DNA of 64,000 bases from NCBI RefSeq assembly GCF_003334355.1, contig NZ_QOWP01000017.1; one strand, 5' to 3'. The translations under genes and the position numbers were made by a program. This stretch comes from Escherichia coli (lineage in GTDB: Bacteria; Pseudomonadota; Gammaproteobacteria; Enterobacterales; Enterobacteriaceae). Every line of letters starts with the position of its first letter. Within the stretch, counting starts at the first letter, position 1. Below the pieces are notes generated by a model, which saw only the letters and a program-made list of their open reading frames with translations, was not told the origin of the DNA and made no database searches. This document shows positions 9,664-16,267 of the stretch, piece by piece.

Positions 9664-9836
9664 TGTCAGGAGTCCTGAATAGTGATTAGAGGAGTCACAT
9701 GTCGGCATCAGTTTCCCGACGATGCGCATCCTCCGCCATCAGTCCCGGATGGCTTATCACTGACACAACAGCACCTTAGCGAATCGCGGGGCGCGACTCA
9801 GTAGCCTTGCCGTGTATTCATCACGGCGAGGTATTC
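9664..9836. promoter_or_regulatory. Divergent late promoter region between O and P (Ogr-dependent in P2)
   Basis: Position between divergently transcribed late operons; from P2 biology, motif not pinpointed. Confidence 0.45.
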
Positions 9837-11609
9837 ATGACCATCACCACAGACACCACTCTTTTACACGACCCGCGTCGTCAGGCGGCGCTGCTGTACT
9901 GGCAGGGGTTTTCCGTGCCGCAGATTGCCGCCATGTTGCAGATGAAACGCCCGACGGTGCAGAGCTGGAAACAGCGCGACGGCTGGGACAGCGTTGCCCC
10001 CATCAGCCGTGTCGAAATGAGTCTGGAAGCGCGGCTGACCCAGCTCATCATCAAACCGCAGAAAACCGGCGGTGACTTCAAGGAAATTGACCTGCTGGGA
10101 CGCCAGATTGAACGGCTGGCGCGGGTCAACCGCTACAGTCAGACCGGCAACGAGGCAGACCTTAATCCGAACGTCGCTAACCGCAACAAAGGCGGGCGTC
10201 GCAAACCGAAAAAGAATTTTTTCAGTGACGAGGCCATCGAAAAGCTGGAGCAGATTTTCTTTGAGCAGTCTTTCGACTATCAGTTGCACTGGTATCGCGC
10301 CGGGCTTGAGCACCGCATCCGCGATATCCTGAAATCCCGCCAGATTGGCGCGACGTTTTATTTTTCCCGCGAGGCGCTGCTGCGCGCCCTGAAAACCGGT
10401 CATAACCAGATTTTTCTGTCGGCCAGTAAAACGCAGGCGTATGTGTTCCGCGAATACATCATCGCCTTTGCCCGGCTGGTTGACGTTGACCTGACCGGTG
10501 ACCCGATTGTCCTGGGCAATAACAGCGCAAAACTGATTTTTCTCGGCACCAACTCCAACACCGCGCAGAGCCATAACGGCGACCTGTACGTCGACGAGAT
10601 TTTCTGGATCCCGAATTTTCAGGTACTGCGTAAGGTGGCATCAGGTATGGCCTCACAGAGTCACCTGCGTTCGACCTATTTCTCCACCCCGTCCACGCTG
10701 GCGCACGACGCCTACCCGTTCTGGTCGGGTGAACTGTTTAACCGGGGACGCGCCAGCGCCGCCGAACGCGTGGAAATCGACGTCAGTCATAACGCCCTTG
10801 CCGGTGGACTTCTCTGTGCGGACGGCCAGTGGCGGCAGATTGTCACCATTGAGGACGCCCTGAAAGGCGGCTGCACGCTGTTCGACATTGAGCAGCTCAA
10901 ACGCGAAAACAGCGCCGACGATTTTAAAAACCTGTTCATGTGTGAATTTGTTGACGACAAGGCGTCGGTGTTCCCGTTCGAGGAGCTGCAACGCTGCATG
11001 GTCGACACGCTGGAAGAATGGGAAGACTATGCGCCGTTTGCCGCGAATCCGTTCGGCTCCCGCCCGGTATGGATTGGTTACGACCCGTCACACCGTGGCG
11101 ACAGCGCCGGATGCGTGGTACTGGCACCGCCGGTGGTAGCCGGTGGCAAATTCAGAATACTTGAGCGTCACCAGTGGAAAGGCATGGACTTTGCCACTCA
11201 GGCTGAATCCATCCGCAAACTCACCGAGAAATACAACGTCGAATACATCGGTATTGATGCCACCGGCCTCGGTGTCGGCGTGTTCCAGCTCGTGCGCTCG
11301 TTCTATCCCGCCGCACGCGACATCCGCTACACGCCGGAAATGAAAACCGCAATGGTGCTCAAGGCAAAAGACGTTATCCGCCGTGGCTGTCTGGAATATG
11401 ACGTCAGCGCCACCGACATCACCAGCTCGTTTATGGCTATCCGCAAGACCATGACCAGCAGCGGACGCAGCGCCACCTATGAGGCCAGCCGCAGCGAGGA
11501 AGCCAGCCACGCCGACCTCGCCTGGGCGACCATGCACGCCCTGTTAAATGAGCCACTCACCGCCGGTATCAGCACCCCGCTGACATCCACCATTCTGGAG
11601 TTTTACTGA
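9837..11609 (+). CDS. P: Terminase large (ATPase) subunit gpP
   Basis: Internal Met gives 590-aa MTITTDTTLLHDPRRQAALLYWQGF..., the size of P2 gpP. Confidence 0.9.
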   Translation: MTITTDTTLLHDPRRQAALLYWQGFSVPQIAAMLQMKRPTVQSWKQRDGWDSVAPISRVEMSLEARLTQLIIKPQKTGGDFKEIDLLGRQIERLARVNRYSQTGNEADLNPNVANRNKGGRRKPKKNFFSDEAIEKLEQIFFEQSFDYQLHWYRAGLEHRIRDILKSRQIGATFYFSREALLRALKTGHNQIFLSASKTQAYVFREYIIAFARLVDVDLTGDPIVLGNNSAKLIFLGTNSNTAQSHNGDLYVDEIFWIPNFQVLRKVASGMASQSHLRSTYFSTPSTLAHDAYPFWSGELFNRGRASAAERVEIDVSHNALAGGLLCADGQWRQIVTIEDALKGGCTLFDIEQLKRENSADDFKNLFMCEFVDDKASVFPFEELQRCMVDTLEEWEDYAPFAANPFGSRPVWIGYDPSHRGDSAGCVVLAPPVVAGGKFRILERHQWKGMDFATQAESIRKLTEKYNVEYIGIDATGLGVGVFQLVRSFYPAARDIRYTPEMKTAMVLKAKDVIRRGCLEYDVSATDITSSFMAIRKTMTSSGRSATYEASRSEEASHADLAWATMHALLNEPLTAGISTPLTSTILEFY

Positions 11610-12643
11610 TGAGCAAGAAAAAAGGGAAAACACCGCAACCTGCGGCAAAAAAAATGACCGCCAGCGCCCCGAAAATGGAGGCATTCACCTTTGGTGAGCC
11701 GGTGCCGGTACTCGACCGCCGTGACATTCTGGATTACGTCGAGTGCATCAGTAACGGCAGATGGTATGAGCCACCGGTCAGCTTTACCGGTCTGGCAAAA
11801 AGTCTGCGTGCTGCCGTGCATCACAGCTCACCGATTTACGTCAAACGTAATATTCTGGCCTCGACATTTATCCCGCATCCGTGGCTTTCCCAGCAGGATT
11901 TCAGCCGCTTTGTGCTGGATTTTCTGGTGTTCGGTAATGCGTTTCTGGAAAAGCGTTACAGCACCACCGGTAAGGTCATCAGACTGGAAACCTCACCGGC
12001 CAAATATACCCGTCGTGGCGTGGAGGAGGATGTTTACTGGTGGGTGCCGTCCTTCAACGAGCCGACAGCCTTCGCGCCCGGCTCCGTGTTTCATCTGCTG
12101 GAGCCTGATATTAATCAGGAGCTGTACGGCCTGCCGGAATATCTCAGCGCCCTTAACTCTGCCTGGCTGAATGAGTCGGCCACGCTGTTCCGCCGCAAGT
12201 ATTACGAAAACGGCGCACATGCCGGATACATCATGTACGTCACCGATGCCGTGCAGGACCGCAACGATATCGAAATGCTTCGCGAAAACATGGTGAAGTC
12301 GAAAGGCCGCAACAACTTTAAAAACCTGTTTCTCTATGCCCCGCAGGGGAAAGCCGACGGCATTAAAATTATCCCGCTCAGTGAAGTGGCGACGAAGGAC
12401 GATTTTTTTAATATCAAAAAAGCCAGCGCCGCTGACCTGCTGGACGCGCACCGCATCCCTTTTCAGTTGATGGGCGGCAAGCCGGAGAACGTCGGATCGC
12501 TGGGCGATATTGAGAAAGTGGCAAAGGTCTTTGTCCGCAATGAGCTTATCCCGCTACAGGACAGAATTCGGGAAATAAACGGCTGGCTCGGCCAGGAGGT
12601 CATCCGCTTTAAAAACTACTCACTGGAGACTGACAACGGCTGA
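11609..12643 (+). CDS. Q: Portal protein gpQ
   Basis: ORF track 344 aa MSKKKGKTPQPAAKKM...; recognised as P2 gpQ family. Confidence 0.9.
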   Translation: MSKKKGKTPQPAAKKMTASAPKMEAFTFGEPVPVLDRRDILDYVECISNGRWYEPPVSFTGLAKSLRAAVHHSSPIYVKRNILASTFIPHPWLSQQDFSRFVLDFLVFGNAFLEKRYSTTGKVIRLETSPAKYTRRGVEEDVYWWVPSFNEPTAFAPGSVFHLLEPDINQELYGLPEYLSALNSAWLNESATLFRRKYYENGAHAGYIMYVTDAVQDRNDIEMLRENMVKSKGRNNFKNLFLYAPQGKADGIKIIPLSEVATKDDFFNIKKASAADLLDAHRIPFQLMGGKPENVGSLGDIEKVAKVFVRNELIPLQDRIREINGWLGQEVIRFKNYSLETDNG

Positions 12644-12648
12644 ACATC

Positions 12649-12670
12649 GCCGCCTGCGGGCGGCTTTTTT
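12649..12670 (+). terminator. Intrinsic terminator after Q
   Basis: gccgcc-tgcg-ggcggc hairpin followed by T6 at 12665..12670, 5 nt after Q stop. Confidence 0.7.
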
Positions 12671-12812
12671 ACACCCCGCCATCACGCCCTCACACGCTCA
12701 TCACCGCACAAAAAATCCCGCAGACACACCAACGCCTCAACTGGCAGACTAAACGCCATCACGACGCGCTCAGACGCTGAAAAAATAAAATCAGCACCAC
12801 CGCCAGCGCGCA

Positions 12813-12831
12813 GTGCTTTCCCCGCCTCGCC
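12813..12831. other. cos: P2 cos site (19-nt cohesive end, joined in prophage)
   Basis: gtgctttccccgcctcgcc is the reverse complement of the P2 cohesive end GGCGAGGCGGGGAAAGCAC (from memory); lies between Q and A as expected. Confidence 0.85.
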
Positions 12832-13116
12832 CGCCCGCTTCATGGGGCGGTTTTAATGCAGTTGCATAGATACTATGGATCCGCACCAGTCCTGACCGCA
12901 CGCAGCCTGAACGGACATCCCCAACGCATGCAAAAACATTCACTTGTTGCATGCATAGCTTTTTAAGTACGCCATACCGCAACTGTACATTTTTAAGCAA
13001 TTGGCAACCTTAAAAAATTTACATTGCTTTCAAGACCTTATCATCCGTAGTCTCTGTTTTTTACTTTGAGCTACATCAATAAAATCTCAAACATGTTTAA
13101 TGCAAAGCCCTTGTTA

Positions 13117-13169
13117 CACAACATAGAATGTATGTCTAGAAACAACGACATACTATATGTTGTGTTTTT
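13117..13169 (+). terminator. Interrupted 15-bp stem-loop plus T5 (terminator-like or operator)
   Basis: cacaacata/tatgttgtg outer stem and tatgtc/gacata inner stem, 10-nt loop, then ttttt. Confidence 0.3.
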
Positions 13170-13231
13170 CCGGCTCTCTGTTCGGTGATATGCCAAATCA
13201 CTTTGCGTTTAAACAGAGCATTATTTCAGGG

Positions 13232-13246
13232 CAAGACTTCGCTCAA
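13232..13246. repeat. Direct repeat copy 1 (caagacttcgctcaa)
   Basis: Exact 15-mer also at 13496..13510. Confidence 0.9.
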
Positions 13247-13309
13247 AAGTCATTCCACCTAAGAAGCGCATATACCGGTGGAAGTTGCCCTCTACTTACA
13301 GGAGGCAAT

Positions 13310-13423
13310 ATGAAGAAATGCTATTACTGCATTCTCGTTCTGGCCCTCTTTGGCTATCCAAACGGTAGTCCGAGTGGTTTGTCAGTAAACGTCAGTAATA
13401 TCAATGTCAGCATTATGCTTTAA
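13310..13423 (+). CDS. Hypothetical small hydrophobic peptide (37 aa) in the P2 old/tin hotspot
   Basis: aggagg at 13300..13305, 4-nt spacer, ATG; MKKCYYCILVLALFGYPNGSPSGLSVNVSNINVSIML; terminator directly downstream. No homolog recognised. Confidence 0.4.
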   Translation: MKKCYYCILVLALFGYPNGSPSGLSVNVSNINVSIML

Positions 13424-13440
13424 TATGCTTCAAACAAAAA

Positions 13441-13465
13441 AACCACCTGCCAGGGTGGTTTTTTT
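13441..13465. terminator. Bidirectional intrinsic terminator
   Basis: accacc/ggtggt stem with A-run upstream (13434..13442) and T7 downstream (13459..13465). Confidence 0.65.
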
Positions 13466-13495
13466 GCGCCCATCATCAATACGATGAAAGACTGA

Positions 13496-13510
13496 CAAGA
13501 CTTCGCTCAA
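13496..13510. repeat. Direct repeat copy 2 (caagacttcgctcaa)
   Basis: Exact 15-mer identical to 13232..13246. Confidence 0.9.
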
Positions 13511-13725
13511 GACGAATTATGCGTCGACATAAGGTTACCCGCAATGATTTTATTAGACTAAATGGATGGCCTTTTATGACCCGGATCAAACGGCTGTCCT
13601 TACCGACATGCTAGTCACTCAATAGCATTTAGCCTTCTAATTCAGCATGCTATTGACCTTCTGCTGCCCCATAACTGCTCCGCATAAGCCATTCAATGCC
13701 ATATCAAATCACGTTGTATTTTTAC

Positions 13726-16002
13726 TCAAATTGGTAACGAGAACCCCGGCCACTCATCAGCAACCGGATACGTGAATTTTTTCCCGTCATAATTTACGGT
13801 CGCGCCACGCGCCAGCGCCTCAAGCTCCCATCGTTGCGGCCTGATACCGTTCTGAGCGAGGTCAACGCGGATACGGGTAATTTGCAATCGTTCAGACCTG
13901 GTCAGTCTGGCAGATGGTGCAATTTCATGCGGTTTTAACGGGATTCCGTTTCTTTGCTGACGATTTGGTGTTCTCAGTCCGTGTTTTAATGCGCCCCTGA
14001 GCGCCATCACGACCTCCGGGTCACTCCATTCGATAACACCGTCATCTACCAGATTAAGCACTGCTGCGGCGTGCTCAGAAGGTGTGGGAGCCGGTAACGA
14101 AGTATCACCACCGGTGAGCTTTCCACAGTTATTGACAGGACTCCGAGGCGCGGCGATGCCGCTTTTTAAAGTCAAAGGCTCAACGACCGGAACTTTCGGC
14201 ACAATGCGCCAGTCCGTCGTTCTGGTGATATGAATATGACGCGCGCCGAGATGCGGCGCGTAAATGCCGACCACTCTCTCGACTTCTTCCTCGTACTCGT
14301 TAACGTCATCCGACGGGCTACGGGCAACCCTGACAGTCTGACAATCGCGCGGGACATTTGCCCCACCCTGCGCGCTGATATACAACGCAAAATCACCACT
14401 GTCTGCAGCAGCGCGAGCAGCCTCGACGCGTTCGTCAAACTCATTAGCAATACTGACGCCGCGAGGCAATTTGCGTAGTTCACGGTAAGCCCCCATTGTC
14501 GGCAGGCCAACCGTTTTAAATTGCGGGATGCGCCACGTTGACGCCCATGCGGTAACAGCCGCCGCTGTGTCTTTCAGCGGTCTGCCGGTATCGTTATCGA
14601 GCTGACCATCCAGTGCATAGCCGTCGATGTTTTTTGAAATGTATTTCGCGATATATCCCGCAGCACCGCCCCGGTTAAGGTATTTTGCCTGAAAACGGTT
14701 TCGCGCGGCTCCTCTTTCGTCGCCATCCTCTTTGAGCGCATAGCGACGCATGATTTCGATAATCTGGTTGCGCTGGCGTGGATTACAAAAAAGCATCATA
14801 TGCCAGTGCGGCGTTCCGTCGTGGTGTGGCTCGACGACACGCAAACCGTAGGCCTGTAAATCATTATCCTTGAATGCCGTGCGCATCAGGCTCCAGATAC
14901 GGCAGAGATAACGCTGCGCATCCTTTGGATTAAATGCCTCATCGTTCCAGCCGTGATTAAGCTGAACGGTTTTACTTTCGCCTTTTCCGACCTGACGTGT
15001 CGGGTGATACTTTGACGGCGCGGTCAGCGTGATAAACATCCCCACATCACCCTCTGCGGCGGCGTAACGCTCAATACCGGCAATGGTGTTCATCAGCTCC
15101 ATCCGGCGAATTTCAGGATTAGAAATACTGCCCATCACCTTACTGATAAGGTCGATGCGCTCGCCGGTTTCCCTGTTTTCAAGGTCACACGATTTAAGAA
15201 ATTCCAGATTTGCCTGGCGGCGCGCACGCACATCACGAATGGCATGTTTACTGGCATAAGGAGAACGGTCTTTATTGACCTCCCCGACAGCAATCAGTAA
15301 CGCCTCATGCCAGCGCATACGCTGGCCTTTAAGCTGATGAGTCCACCACTCATCGTTAAACAGGCGGGCAATGGCAGAATATGCCTGCCTCGTGGTCATC
15401 TGTCCTTTACGGTATTTTTTCCAGTAGAGCGGGGAAATATTGAAAGCACGTGCAGCGCCAGCAACATGACCATAGAGGTGAGCCTGCGCCTCATCCGTAA
15501 ACAGCGATTCTTTTTCGCCATGTGCATCAACCCAGGCATCGCAGAGTTCCTCATACATCATGAAAAGCTGCGATGAGATACGGGCAGCAAACTTTTTCAG
15601 CTCCTTGTCATTCATTCCTGGCAGGCGCGCATAGTGGTCACGCTCTGCCAGAAACAGCAACGACGCGTCGGTGTTCATTTCATGGCGCTGATTCACACGC
15701 TCAATGCGCGGCCATAAACGACGCTGAAAAGTGGATGTGAGGAAATAAAACCCGTGCACCGGGCTTTTATTGCGCCGGATGTAGTCATAGCGTGAAGTAA
15801 ACAGCGAGCGCAAAAAGTAAGGCAGGCGGTTAATCGTGGATAAAACACCTTGCACCTGACGCATCTCGTCACGTGTAAGGGGTCTTTCGCGCCCGACAGC
15901 CTCGCGTGGCGCGTTCCATGCATAAGCACCGGTAAACGCCTTACCGGTGCCTGCGGCAAATGCTGACGGAGGGACAAAACGCCCGGAGGCTTTAACGGCC
16001 AT
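13726..16002 (-). CDS. A: Replication initiation protein gpA (rolling-circle nickase)
   Basis: ORF track 772 aa (track start is TTG at 16044); ATG at 16002 gives MAVKASGRFVPPSAF..., matching P2 gpA as recalled; start uncertain. Confidence 0.9.
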   Translation of the reverse strand: MAVKASGRFVPPSAFAAGTGKAFTGAYAWNAPREAVGRERPLTRDEMRQVQGVLSTINRLPYFLRSLFTSRYDYIRRNKSPVHGFYFLTSTFQRRLWPRIERVNQRHEMNTDASLLFLAERDHYARLPGMNDKELKKFAARISSQLFMMYEELCDAWVDAHGEKESLFTDEAQAHLYGHVAGAARAFNISPLYWKKYRKGQMTTRQAYSAIARLFNDEWWTHQLKGQRMRWHEALLIAVGEVNKDRSPYASKHAIRDVRARRQANLEFLKSCDLENRETGERIDLISKVMGSISNPEIRRMELMNTIAGIERYAAAEGDVGMFITLTAPSKYHPTRQVGKGESKTVQLNHGWNDEAFNPKDAQRYLCRIWSLMRTAFKDNDLQAYGLRVVEPHHDGTPHWHMMLFCNPRQRNQIIEIMRRYALKEDGDERGAARNRFQAKYLNRGGAAGYIAKYISKNIDGYALDGQLDNDTGRPLKDTAAAVTAWASTWRIPQFKTVGLPTMGAYRELRKLPRGVSIANEFDERVEAARAAADSGDFALYISAQGGANVPRDCQTVRVARSPSDDVNEYEEEVERVVGIYAPHLGARHIHITRTTDWRIVPKVPVVEPLTLKSGIAAPRSPVNNCGKLTGGDTSLPAPTPSEHAAAVLNLVDDGVIEWSDPEVVMALRGALKHGLRTPNRQQRNGIPLKPHEIAPSARLTRSERLQITRIRVDLAQNGIRPQRWELEALARGATVNYDGKKFTYPVADEWPGFSLPI

Positions 16003-16267
16003 ATGAGCCAAAAGCCTCTGAACAACGCCTGCTGAGTTGCTCAACCTGCGCGTTTAAATCAGCAAAAGACTTTGCGCTTCCGGTCAGAATATCGTGATGC
16101 ATCAGGCCGGAAACGAGCTGGCTTAATTTCGGATAATAACCAACCACCGCCAGCCATTCCTGACCGGCGTTTTTACCGCTTTCCGCTCTCTTTTTCTCGT
16201 GGAGAATAAACTGAAAGCTGTCACTGGTAACGACATAACGTTCGCCAATTTCAATACGAATACTCAT
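15992..16267 (-). CDS. P2 early-operon small protein (orf83-like)
   Basis: ORF track 91 aa; position just upstream of A. Confidence 0.6.
   Translation of the reverse strand: MSIRIEIGERYVVTSDSFQFILHEKKRAESGKNAGQEWLAVVGYYPKLSQLVSGLMHHDILTGSAKSFADLNAQVEQLSRRCSEAFGSYGR

What the first reader, a model, noticed from the sequence alone, without database searches (positions are those of the whole stretch)
13117..13169. Interrupted long hairpin with T-run upstream of the small ORF
Seen: cacaacata...tatgtc pairs with gacata...tatgttgtg (15 paired positions, asymmetric internal loop, 10-nt terminal loop) followed by ttttt. It may terminate transcripts entering from cos, or act as an operator or RNA processing site. 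It also contains the ATG of the 88-codon track ORF, which argues against that longer reading.
Basis: seen in the sequence. Interest (0 to 1): 0.35.

Follow-up and report, generated by a model that had tools for sequence, protein, structure and literature searches.

The report
Captured nrdDG promoter-operator in a prophage
The "hairpin" is most likely not an RNA terminator but the double-stranded core of a promoter that a P2-like prophage copied from the host's anaerobic ribonucleotide-reductase (nrdDG) operon. Its arms look like half-sites of the NrdR repressor box, and the promoter points at a conserved 37-codon gene.

Summary
There is a 10-bp perfect inverted repeat (13116-13125 / 13156-13165), a 7-bp inner stem, and TTTTT; the fold has z = -5.6.

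The terminator reading does not hold.
- Window 12985-13131 is homologous to the treC-nrdD intergenic region found in all 5,426 E. coli genomes, which is the FNR-activated, NrdR-repressed nrdDG promoter.
- FNR site 2, FNR site 1 and the -10 hexamer sit at the same spacings as in nrdDG. This places the transcription start at about 13137, inside the hairpin loop, so the 5' arm would not be transcribed.
- The 3' arm lies in a sequence (13150-13165) that is the best NrdR-box match in the whole 64-kb window, scoring as well as validated boxes.
- The 5' arm is a good NrdR left half-site, but that box lacks T11 and G13.
- The sister allele, found in about 70 E. coli genomes and two phages, lacks the inner stem and the T-run. 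Substitutions in the stems are uncompensated.

The promoter faces a structured leader, a conserved 37-codon ORF and a bidirectional terminator. Together these form a roughly 720-bp cassette in the P2 A-cos hotspot. The 88-codon ORF is not conserved.

NrdR binding, FNR dependence and the transcription start are inferred, not shown. I rate this a new variant of a known kind, of moderate interest.

The parts
12985..13131 (+). Segment homologous to the host treC-nrdD intergenic region, i.e. the nrdDG promoter
   Evidence: blastn finds window 13010-13111 at 78-80% identity in 5426 of 5426 E. coli genomes. The hit lies between treC and nrdD. Local alignments run from about 12985 to the -10 hexamer, and the sister allele is 44/45 identical to K-12 across the FNR region.
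13066..13079 (.). FNR site 2 (TTGAG-CTAC-ATCAA), homologous to the nrdDG site centred at -64.5
   Evidence: Identical to the K-12 site in the published 54-mer (PMC10425943) and conserved in both alleles; the only change lies in the N4 spacer.
13097..13110 (.). FNR site 1 position (TTAAT-GCAA-AGCCC), centred 31 bp from site 2 as in nrdDG (-33.5); in this allele TTGAT has become TTAAT
   Evidence: The sister allele and the host promoters keep TTGAT.
13124..13129 (+). -10 hexamer TAGAAT (TAAAAT in the sister allele and in host nrdDG), 13 bp after FNR site 1 as in K-12
   Evidence: It lies in the 5' arm and internal loop of the hairpin.
13137..13137 (+). Predicted transcription start (+/-2 nt), the first base of the hairpin's terminal loop
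   Evidence: Inferred: centre of FNR site 1 (13103.5) plus 33.5, using the published nrdDG map (PMC10425943). Not measured.
13116..13165 (.). The finding: interrupted palindrome with 10-bp outer arms (13116-13125 / 13156-13165) and a 7-bp inner stem (13130-13136 / 13147-13153)
13116..13131 (.). Degenerate NrdR box 1-like sequence ACACAACATAGAATGT (C4, A6, A8, T9 present; T11 and G13 absent), overlapping the -10
   Evidence: 10.5 bits with a matrix built from six validated E. coli boxes, the third-best location in the 64-kb window. Rank 24 of 63,985 with the matrix that leaves out the nrdD boxes. Box rules from bioRxiv 10.64898/2026.05.11.724285.
13150..13165 (.). NrdR box 2 ATACTATATGTTGTGT (all six conserved positions present), predicted +14 to +29
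   Evidence: 19.4 bits, rank 1 of 127,970 positions; validated boxes score 17.1-21.4. Still rank 1 (16.6 bits) with a matrix built without the nrdD boxes. Shares ATATGTTGT with K-12 nrdD box 2. Invariant between the two alleles.
13137..13309 (+). Predicted 173-nt leader. An anti-Shine-Dalgarno stretch (13173-13181) pairs with the Shine-Dalgarno region (13298-13306). The stem 13254-13259 / 13277-13282 shows one compensatory change.
   Evidence: RNAalifold on 10 variants; single-sequence folds.
13310..13423 (+). Conserved 37-codon ORF (MKKCYYCILVLALFGYPNGSPSGLSVNVSNINVSIML) with an AGGAGG ribosome-binding site at 13300-13305
   Evidence: Intact in all variants; 4-6 synonymous against 2-3 non-synonymous codon differences. 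Present as an exact protein on 1000 or more contigs, always named hypothetical. No family hit.
13435..13466 (.). Bidirectional intrinsic terminator (CAAAAAAACCACC-N6-GGTGGTTTTTTTG) shared by the small ORF (+) and the gene A operon (-)
   Evidence: 0 differences between alleles.
13437..13509 (-). Candidate small RNA (or gene A 3'UTR segment) whose 5' end GAGCGAAGUCUUG is complementary to the leader at 13232-13244. Putative -35 TTGCGG 13544-13539 and -10 CATAAT 13521-13516.
   Evidence: 15-nt exact direct repeat 13232-13246 = 13496-13510; fold; duplex energy in the 0.4% tail of shuffles. Weak sub-threshold Rfam small-RNA-like hits at 13434-13520 on the minus strand. Inference only.

Best explanation
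The palindrome is a DNA-level feature: the core of a promoter-operator that a cassette in the P2 A-cos hotspot took over from an enterobacterial nrdDG operon. Upstream lie the two FNR sites. The -10 hexamer sits in the 5' arm, and transcription is predicted to start in the loop at about 13137. It would read through a structured leader into the 37-codon ORF. The 3' arm belongs to a full-strength NrdR box (13150-13165). The 5' arm is the mirror-image NrdR half-site inside a degenerate box (13116-13131) that overlaps the -10. NrdR boxes are themselves palindromic, so two of them in tandem read as a long interrupted hairpin. The likely mechanism is that FNR switches the promoter on without oxygen, and dATP/ATP-loaded NrdR, if it binds, sits over the -10 to about +29 and blocks RNA polymerase. 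The extra 7-bp inner stem and the T-run are peculiar to this allele. The inner stem looks like a template-switch mutation that perfected a quasi-palindrome. It lengthened the inter-box spacer from 16 to 18 bp. Shown here: the homology, the geometry, the box scores and the allele comparison. Inferred: the start site, FNR dependence, NrdR binding and the template-switch origin.
For: Homology: window 13010-13111 matches the treC-nrdD intergenic region in every E. coli genome. Alignments to K-12, E. albertii, Citrobacter and the sister allele show shared FNR site 2, FNR site 1, TAAAATGC and ATATGTTGT with identical FNR-to-(-10) spacing. The published nrdDG maps agree: FNR sites at -64.5 and -33.5 (PMC10425943) and an NrdR probe with two boxes and a 15-bp linker (PMC12176259). 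Box scores: box 2 ranks 1 of about 128,000 positions at 19.4 bits, and still ranks 1 when the nrdD boxes are left out of the matrix. Box 1 is the third-best location in the window and lies 34 bp away. Allele comparison: there are 9-10 differences between alleles in 13111-13170, and none falls in the left arm or box 2, which by chance has a probability of about 0.003-0.006. The two variants that do change box 2 (13159 G>A, 13154 T>C) hit positions 10 and 5. These are not among the six conserved NrdR positions. The G>A change moves the box toward the consensus while breaking a C-G pair of the hairpin. Spacer: the sister allele has the canonical 16-bp spacer. Against an RNA role: see the first-reader verdict. 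Inner stem: GTATGTC is the exact reverse complement of GACATAC 10 nt away. It replaces GCAGCC of the sister allele, which is the form closer to the host.
Against: Box 1 lacks T11 and G13. G13 and C4 are reported to be critical in both boxes, and single boxes do not bind EcoNrdR. Box 1 also fails the published box regular expression. The 18-bp spacer of this allele binds in vitro but was derepressed in vivo in a reporter. In this allele the only good half of FNR site 1 is mutated (TTGAT to TTAAT) and the -10 is TAGAAT. Both boxes sit about 10 bp further downstream relative to the -10 than in nrdDG. The downstream gene is not a ribonucleotide reductase. Conservation of the left arm alone is not significant (about 0.16). 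There is no transcript or binding data for this locus, and only two deep alleles exist, so comparative power is low.
Confidence: 0.6

Rival explanations
1. An intrinsic terminator or RNA hairpin acting on transcripts that enter from the cos side.
For: The fold is stable (-26.3 kcal/mol, z = -5.6) and is followed by TTTTT on the + strand only.
Against: Two strong terminators already close the P-Q operon at 12647-12664 and 12831-12850. The stem is A+U-rich with a 10-nt loop and was not called by the terminator scan. The T-run and inner stem are missing in the sister allele, where the fold is lost. Stem substitutions are uncompensated. The element sits on the -10 and +1 of a conserved promoter.
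Confidence: 0.06
2. A shorter leader hairpin at the 5' end of the mRNA. RNA starting at about 13137 folds AGAAACA-CGACAUA / UAUGUUG-UGUUUUU (13138-13169). This could protect the 5' end from decay, or act as a weak early attenuator. The DNA palindrome would then be incidental.
For: This is the predicted fold of the leader in both alleles. The CGACAUA/UAUGUUG stem is invariant between the two main alleles. In this allele it is followed by a U-run.
Against: The hairpin is simply the internal palindrome of NrdR box 2, so it comes at no extra cost. The 13159 G>A variant breaks it without compensation (CA in 2 of 10). The leader fold as a whole is not exceptional (z = -1.5). The U-run is not conserved.
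Confidence: 0.14
3. An operator for a different symmetric DNA-binding protein (phage- or host-encoded) that recognises ACACAACATA half-sites 40 bp apart, not NrdR.
For: The two arms are identical at all 10 positions, including positions NrdR does not constrain. Box 1 fails the NrdR rules.
Against: No candidate regulator is encoded in the cassette. The only ORF is 37 codons, and the cassette occurs both with and without neighbouring cargo. The arm sequence is inherited from nrdD box 2 (CAACAT half-site). The arm spacing differs by 2 bp between alleles.
Confidence: 0.08
4. A functionless relic: a decayed copy of the nrdDG operator whose symmetry was increased by template-switch mutation. The promoter would be constitutive or dead.
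For: In this allele FNR site 1, the -10 and the spacer all depart from the host form. The inner stem is a clustered change that perfects a quasi-palindrome.
Against: Box 2, FNR site 2 and the left arm are unchanged between alleles that differ by 15% around them. The leader, the ribosome-binding site and the ORF downstream are all maintained.
Confidence: 0.12

Closest known systems
E. coli nrdDG promoter-operator (FNR sites at -64.5 and -33.5; NrdR boxes 1 and 2 with a 15-bp linker)
   Same: About 150 bp of sequence homology. The FNR site 2 sequence is identical. The FNR-FNR (31 bp) and FNR-to-(-10) (13 bp) spacings are the same. The -10 is TAAAAT/TAGAAT. Box 2 shares ATATGTTGT.
   Different: Host box 1 (GCACTATATATAGACT) has been replaced. 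The box-like element lies about 10 bp further downstream, over the -10, and lacks T11 and G13. Box 2 lies at about +14 instead of +1. The spacer is 18 bp (16 in the sister allele). The downstream gene is a 37-codon ORF in a prophage, not a ribonucleotide reductase.
Rho-independent (intrinsic) terminators
   Same: A stem-loop followed by five T.
   Different: The stem is A+T-rich, there is an internal loop, the terminal loop is 10 nt, the T-run is not conserved, the element lies inside a promoter, and real terminators stand upstream.
Cargo of the P2 gpA-gpQ (old/tin) hotspot (Rousset et al. 2022, PMC9122126)
   Same: Same locus between gene A and cos/Q. The element is present in only 12 of 79 close P2 relatives and moves as one unit.
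   Different: It encodes no protein of ordinary size. Arrangements made only of short proteins were discarded in that survey. No PADLOC hit.
Type I toxin-antitoxin loci with a trans-acting small RNA (tisB/istR-1, zorO/orzO, shoB/ohsC; recalled from memory)
   Same: A small ORF with a hydrophobic N-terminus, a long leader predicted to sequester the ribosome-binding site, and a nearby convergent RNA candidate whose 5' end has 12-15 nt of complementarity to a leader loop.
   Different: The hydrophobic stretch is only about 13 residues. Neither toxicity nor the small RNA has been shown. There is no Rfam or family match.
Quasi-palindrome template-switch mutations (Ripley; Lovett laboratory; recalled from memory)
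   Same: A clustered substitution plus a 2-nt insertion in one allele makes 7 nt exactly complementary to a neighbouring sequence.
   Different: This is inferred from two alleles and an outgroup only. The event itself was not observed.

Membership tests
Intrinsic terminator | G+C-rich stem with a short (3-8 nt) loop | tested here: not met
   4 G-C pairs of 17, a 5/3 internal loop and a 10-nt loop. Not reported by the terminator scan, which did find the neighbouring terminators.
Intrinsic terminator | U-tract directly after the stem, conserved in relatives | tested here: not met
   TTTTT in this allele, TTGTT in the sister allele (12 of 21 distinct variants).
Intrinsic terminator | Whole hairpin transcribed, at the end of a transcription unit | tested here: inconclusive
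   The predicted start at about 13137 leaves the 5' arm untranscribed, and upstream units end at 12664 and 12850. No RNA data.
NrdR operator (tandem NrdR boxes) | Box 2 with C4, A6, A8, T9, T11 and G13 | tested here: met
   ATACTATATGTTGTGT has 6 of 6. It scores 19.4 bits and ranks 1 in the window.
NrdR operator (tandem NrdR boxes) | Box 1 with the same conserved positions (C4 and G13 critical in both boxes) | tested here: not met
   ACACAACATAGAATGT has C4, A6, A8 and T9, but G at position 11 and A at position 13. It fails the published regular expression.
NrdR operator (tandem NrdR boxes) | Spacer of 15-16 bp (14-17 tolerated) or 24-27 bp | tested here: inconclusive
   18 bp in this allele: good binding by EcoNrdR in vitro, derepressed in vivo. 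16 bp in the sister allele.
NrdR operator (tandem NrdR boxes) | Overlaps the RNA polymerase site of a ribonucleotide-reductase operon | tested here: not met
   It overlaps the -10 and +1 of an nrdDG-derived promoter, but the downstream gene is a 37-codon ORF, not an RNR.
NrdR operator (tandem NrdR boxes) | Binding of ATP+dATP-loaded NrdR | not testable with these tools
   Needs MST or EMSA, or ChIP in a lysogen.
nrdDG-type FNR-activated promoter | Sequence homology to the nrdDG regulatory region | tested here: met
nrdDG-type FNR-activated promoter | FNR site 2 (necessary and sufficient in nrdDG) matching TTGAT-N4-ATCAA | tested here: met
   TTGAGCTACATCAA, identical to K-12.
nrdDG-type FNR-activated promoter | FNR site 1 at 31 bp from site 2, with a TTGAT half-site | tested here: not met
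   The position is kept, but the half-site is TTAAT in this allele. It is TTGAT in the sister allele.
nrdDG-type FNR-activated promoter | Anaerobic, FNR-dependent transcription from the predicted start | not testable with these tools
   Needs a reporter or 5'-end mapping with and without oxygen, and with and without fnr.
Type I toxin-antitoxin | Small hydrophobic membrane toxin | tested here: inconclusive
   37 aa with a hydrophobic N-terminal stretch of about 13 residues and a polar C-terminus. No family hit.
Type I toxin-antitoxin | Antisense RNA that pairs with the toxin mRNA | tested here: inconclusive
   15-nt complementarity between the leader and a convergent candidate RNA. The promoter is sub-consensus, and the core 12-13 nt are invariant.
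Type I toxin-antitoxin | Toxicity on overexpression, neutralised by the RNA | not testable with these tools
   Needs an expression assay.

The most novel reading that the evidence does not exclude
The cassette is a self-contained sensor-effector module in the P2 defence hotspot. A host RNR-type control region reports anoxia (through FNR) and a fall in the dATP/ATP signal (through NrdR), as happens when an infecting phage drains or rewires the dNTP pool. It drives a small membrane-active peptide that is otherwise held in check by a sequestered ribosome-binding site and a convergent antisense RNA. This would be a type I toxin-antitoxin-like abortive-infection or lysogenic-conversion switch. It would also be the first NrdR target outside nucleotide metabolism in E. 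coli.
Probability: 0.1. Interest if true: 0.8.

Novelty: new variant of a known kind. Interest (0 to 1): 0.42.

Why it matters
NrdR is regarded as a repressor dedicated to ribonucleotide-reductase operons, and the nrdDG promoter is a textbook FNR/NrdR target. Here that control region has been copied into a mobile cassette at the P2 old/tin hotspot, in front of an unannotated 37-codon gene carried by about 190 of 5,426 complete E. coli genomes.

If the copy is regulated like the original, a prophage would read the host's oxygen and dNTP status through host regulators. That would give a simple, testable entry into what very small hotspot genes do, a class that cargo surveys have filtered out.

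It is also a caution for sequence readers. Tandem palindromic operators, sharpened by quasi-palindrome mutation, can imitate a terminator closely.

Tried and rejected
**Rfam.** Searching 12000-14500 at E <= 10 gave nothing at the hairpin. The only hits were sub-threshold terminator-driven ones at 13396-13520.

**Covariation at the hairpin.** Only two deep alleles plus a few single-base variants exist, so no covariation statistic is possible. The few changes seen are uncompensated.

**Wider search for the small protein.**
- Searching with the 88-aa frame found only the two known clusters.
- PHROGs, NCBIfam and PADLOC gave no hit.

**Collection scans.**
- An IUPAC-coded scan of genome contigs returned nothing.
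- A plain 18-mer found only host nrdD promoters of Escherichia and Citrobacter plus chance hits.
- The 17-mer of box 2 in viral contigs gave 78 loci. Only about 27 of them also carry the small-ORF pattern.

**Other NrdR-like boxes.** Single boxes scoring 14 bits or more downstream of gene A in other P2 relatives were singletons inside coding sequence, apart from L167.

**Other DNA-binding proteins, considered by eye and dropped.** P2 Ogr/delta late-promoter dyad (TGT-N12-ACA at -55), Cox boxes, LexA, CRP, ArcA, Fur and IscR. None has a matching half-site or spacing. This rests on remembered consensus sequences, not on a scan.

**Alternative NrdR box 1 positions.** Registers giving 15-17-bp or 26-27-bp spacers were examined; none has C4 plus G13 (by inspection of the sequence).

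**Literature.** No paper holds NrdR together with P2-like phages or prophages.

Full report
**Context.** The window is a P2-like (Peduovirus) prophage of E. coli.
- The terminase gene (9807-11609) and portal gene (11609-12643) run on the + strand.
- The P2 cohesive-end sequence, read as GTGCTTTCCCCGCCTCGCC, lies at about 12813-12831. This identification rests on my own memory of the P2 cos sequence.
- The replication endonuclease gene A (13726-16044) lies on the - strand.
- The 895 bp between cos and gene A correspond to the old/tin hotspot of P2 (PMC9122126). RefSeq annotates no gene there.
- The finding lies in the middle of this stretch.

**The observation.**
The repeat is slightly longer than reported, with 10-bp outer arms and a 7-bp inner stem.
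- The fold is far better than shuffled sequence (z = -5.56) and equally good on the other strand (z = -5.8).
- The equal fold on both strands already suggests that DNA symmetry, not a strand-specific RNA signal, is what is present.

**What the surroundings are.**
- A distant blastn of 13000-13480 against complete E. coli genomes gave an unexpected result. All 5,426 genomes have a 102-bp match to window 13010-13111 at 78-80% identity.
- In K-12 that match lies between treC and nrdD.
- Alignment shows that from about 12985 to the -10 hexamer the prophage sequence is a copy of the nrdDG regulatory region.
- The published 54-mer carrying the two FNR sites of nrdDG, centred at -64.5 and -33.5 (PMC10425943), aligns base for base.
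  - FNR site 2 (TTGAGCTACATCAA, window 13066-13079) is identical.
  - FNR site 1 is 31 bp downstream (13097-13110).
  - The -10 (TAGAAT here; TAAAAT in K-12 and in the sister allele) follows after the same 13 bp.
- Applying the published map puts the transcription start at 13137 +/- 2. That is the first base of the hairpin's terminal loop.
- So the whole 5' arm is promoter DNA upstream of the start, and a transcript from this promoter cannot form the reported hairpin.

**The arms as NrdR half-sites.**
- In nrdDG the -10 is flanked by two 16-bp NrdR boxes with a 15-bp linker (PMC12176259).
- I built a weight matrix from the six experimentally bound E. coli boxes.
  - Window 13150-13165 (ATACTATATGTTGTGT), which contains the 3' arm, scores 19.4 bits. 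That is rank 1 of 127,970 positions in the 64-kb window and within the range of the true boxes (17.1-21.4).
  - The next unrelated site scores 10.7 bits.
- With the nrdD boxes left out of the matrix, this box still ranks first (16.6 bits) and scores above the held-out genuine nrdD boxes (15.3 and 9.9).
- It carries all six conserved positions: C4, A6, A8, T9, T11 and G13.
- The 5' arm lies in 13116-13131 (ACACAACATAGAATGT). This is the third-best location in the window (10.5 bits).
  - Its left half is a perfect NrdR half-site.
  - Its right half, which is the -10 hexamer, lacks T11 and G13.
- Each NrdR box is an imperfect palindrome. The left half of one box is therefore the reverse complement of the right half of the next, which is exactly the outer stem.

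**Comparison with relatives.**
- The cassette (about 13010-13726) occurs as one unit in 12 of 79 P2 relatives that have nearly identical gene A. It is absent, downstream region included, from the other 67.
- It exists in two main alleles.
  - The window type: 113 complete E. coli genomes match at 95% identity or more.
  - A sister type: 71 genomes match at 80-90% identity. It is also found in the phage records OU784750/NC_070905 and OQ383618.
- The alleles differ at 9-10 positions in 13111-13170. None of these falls in the left arm or box 2 (chance about 0.003-0.006).
- The sister allele has three relevant differences:
  - It lacks the inner-stem 5' arm (GCAGCC instead of GTATGTCT, 2 nt shorter).
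  - It has TTGTT instead of TTTTT.
  - It does not fold into the long hairpin (z = -2.1).
- Its box spacer is 16 bp, the canonical value. The window allele has 18 bp. EcoNrdR tolerates 18 bp in vitro, but that spacing was derepressed in a reporter in vivo (PMC12051234).
- Rare variants change 13159 G>A and 13154 T>C. These are positions 10 and 5 of box 2, which NrdR does not constrain. The first breaks a C-G pair of the outer stem. A third variant (13135 T>C) breaks the inner stem. None is compensated.
- Host nrdD promoters of E. albertii, Citrobacter gillenii and another Escherichia keep both boxes invariant while the linker drifts. The two prophage alleles repeat this pattern for box 2.

**Origin of the inner stem.**
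- The sister allele shares TAAAATGC with the host, so the window allele is the derived form.
- Its clustered change makes GTATGTC (13130-13136) the exact reverse complement of GACATAC (13147-13153).
- A multi-base change that perfects a quasi-palindrome is the signature of template-switch mutation. This is an inference from established knowledge, not something tested here.
- It would explain why this allele looks so much like a designed hairpin.

**Why it is not a terminator.**
- The P-Q late operon entering from the left already ends at GCCGCCTGCGGGCGGC-TTTTTT (12649-12664). A second G+C-rich terminator overlaps cos at 12831-12850.
- The hairpin has 4 G-C pairs, an internal loop and a 10-nt terminal loop. 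The scan that found those two terminators did not call it.
- On the minus strand no T-run follows the hairpin.

**What the promoter drives.**
- Downstream lie a predicted 173-nt leader, an AGGAGG ribosome-binding site, a 37-codon ORF (13310-13423) and a perfect bidirectional terminator (13435-13466). The gene A operon, coming from the other side, shares that terminator.
- The 88-codon frame that starts in the 3' arm has in-frame stop codons in the sister allele and loses its ATG in one variant. The 37-codon ORF is intact everywhere, with 4-6 synonymous against 2-3 non-synonymous codon changes.
- The consensus fold of ten leader variants pairs GGCUCUCUGU (13173-13181) with the Shine-Dalgarno region (13298-13306). 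One-sided changes preserve that pairing. The stem 13254-13259 / 13277-13282 shows one compensatory A-U to G-C change.
- The peptide has no family match and is always named hypothetical.

**A side hypothesis.**
- A 15-nt exact direct repeat (13232-13246 and 13496-13510) means that minus-strand RNA from the region downstream of the terminator is complementary to a predicted loop in the leader.
- A sub-consensus promoter (TTGCGG-17-CATAAT, 13544-13516) would start a roughly 70-nt RNA precisely at that complementary sequence, ending at the shared terminator.
- Together with the sequestered ribosome-binding site, this resembles a type I toxin-antitoxin layout. I treat it as a lead (about 0.25-0.3), not a finding.

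**Verdict.**
- The palindrome is real, but its best reading is a promoter-operator copied from nrdDG.
  - I hold the promoter homology and geometry with high confidence (about 0.85).
  - I hold the NrdR-operator function with moderate confidence (about 0.45-0.55), because box 1 fails two critical positions and this allele's spacer is marginal.
- It is not a member of the terminator class.
- It works like, but cannot yet be filed as, a canonical NrdR operator.
- I found no paper that holds NrdR together with P2-like phages or prophages. On that basis I take host RNR control DNA in front of a tiny gene in the P2 defence hotspot to be undescribed, and it is readily testable.

Noticed in passing
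window 13496-13510 and 13232-13246; 13437-13544 (-): A 15-nt exact direct repeat links the small-ORF leader to the region beyond the shared terminator. On the minus strand a TTGCGG-17-CATAAT promoter-like site would start a roughly 70-nt RNA whose 5' end is antisense to the leader, giving a type I toxin-antitoxin-like layout.
   Followed up: partly
window 13173-13181 / 13298-13306 and 13254-13259 / 13277-13282: The predicted leader structure sequesters the Shine-Dalgarno sequence. One stem shows a compensatory A-U to G-C change between the alleles.
   Followed up: partly
window 13130-13136 vs 13147-13153: The inner stem of this allele is a clustered change (substitutions plus a 2-nt insertion) that makes a perfect 7-nt complement of a neighbouring sequence. 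This looks like a quasi-palindrome template-switch mutation. It also lengthens the NrdR spacer from 16 to 18 bp.
   Followed up: partly
window 13181-13210 and 13692-13721: A second, imperfect direct repeat (30 nt, 70% identity) lies between the leader and the 3' end of gene A. It is not collinear with the 15-nt repeat. Unexplained.
   Followed up: no
window 13619-13628 / 13647-13656, and 13316-13325 / 13621-13630: There are two more perfect 10-nt inverted repeats. One lies within the gene A-proximal part of the cassette; the other pairs the start of the small ORF (13316-13325) with that part (13621-13630). This part is the most divergent between alleles (17-21%). Its function is unknown.
   Followed up: no
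L167 5058-5104 (IMGVR_UViG_2838864276_000011): A distant P2-like phage (gene A 56% identical) has an NrdR-like box pair, TTTCTATGTATTGTGG-15 bp-GCACAATATATTGTGA, immediately after the gene A stop codon and upstream of an ImmA/IrrE-like 358-aa ORF. This hints that NrdR-type operators may recur in this hotspot.
   Followed up: partly
L005 407-2582; L002 326-1502; L003 978-2129: In the sister allele, the space between the cassette and cos carries extra cargo transcribed away from the cassette (an ImmA/IrrE-family metallopeptidase plus hypothetical proteins). The window allele has none.
   Followed up: no
L175 (Citrobacter gillenii) vs L004 (K-12), window 13075-13086: Between the FNR sites, the window allele shares ATCAATAAAATC with the Citrobacter nrdD promoter, while the sister allele shares ATCAAAAAAAGC with E. 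coli. This could reflect separate captures, or gene conversion with different hosts.
   Followed up: no
window 12647-12664 and 12831-12850: Two G+C-rich intrinsic terminators close the P-Q late operon. The second overlaps the cos cohesive-end sequence.
   Followed up: no
NZ_CP026085.1 (record labelled E. coli DH5alpha), 1765993-1766863: A record labelled DH5alpha carries this P2-like cassette at 99.5% identity. This is unexpected for a K-12 derivative and may indicate a mislabelled strain or a laboratory lysogen.
   Followed up: no
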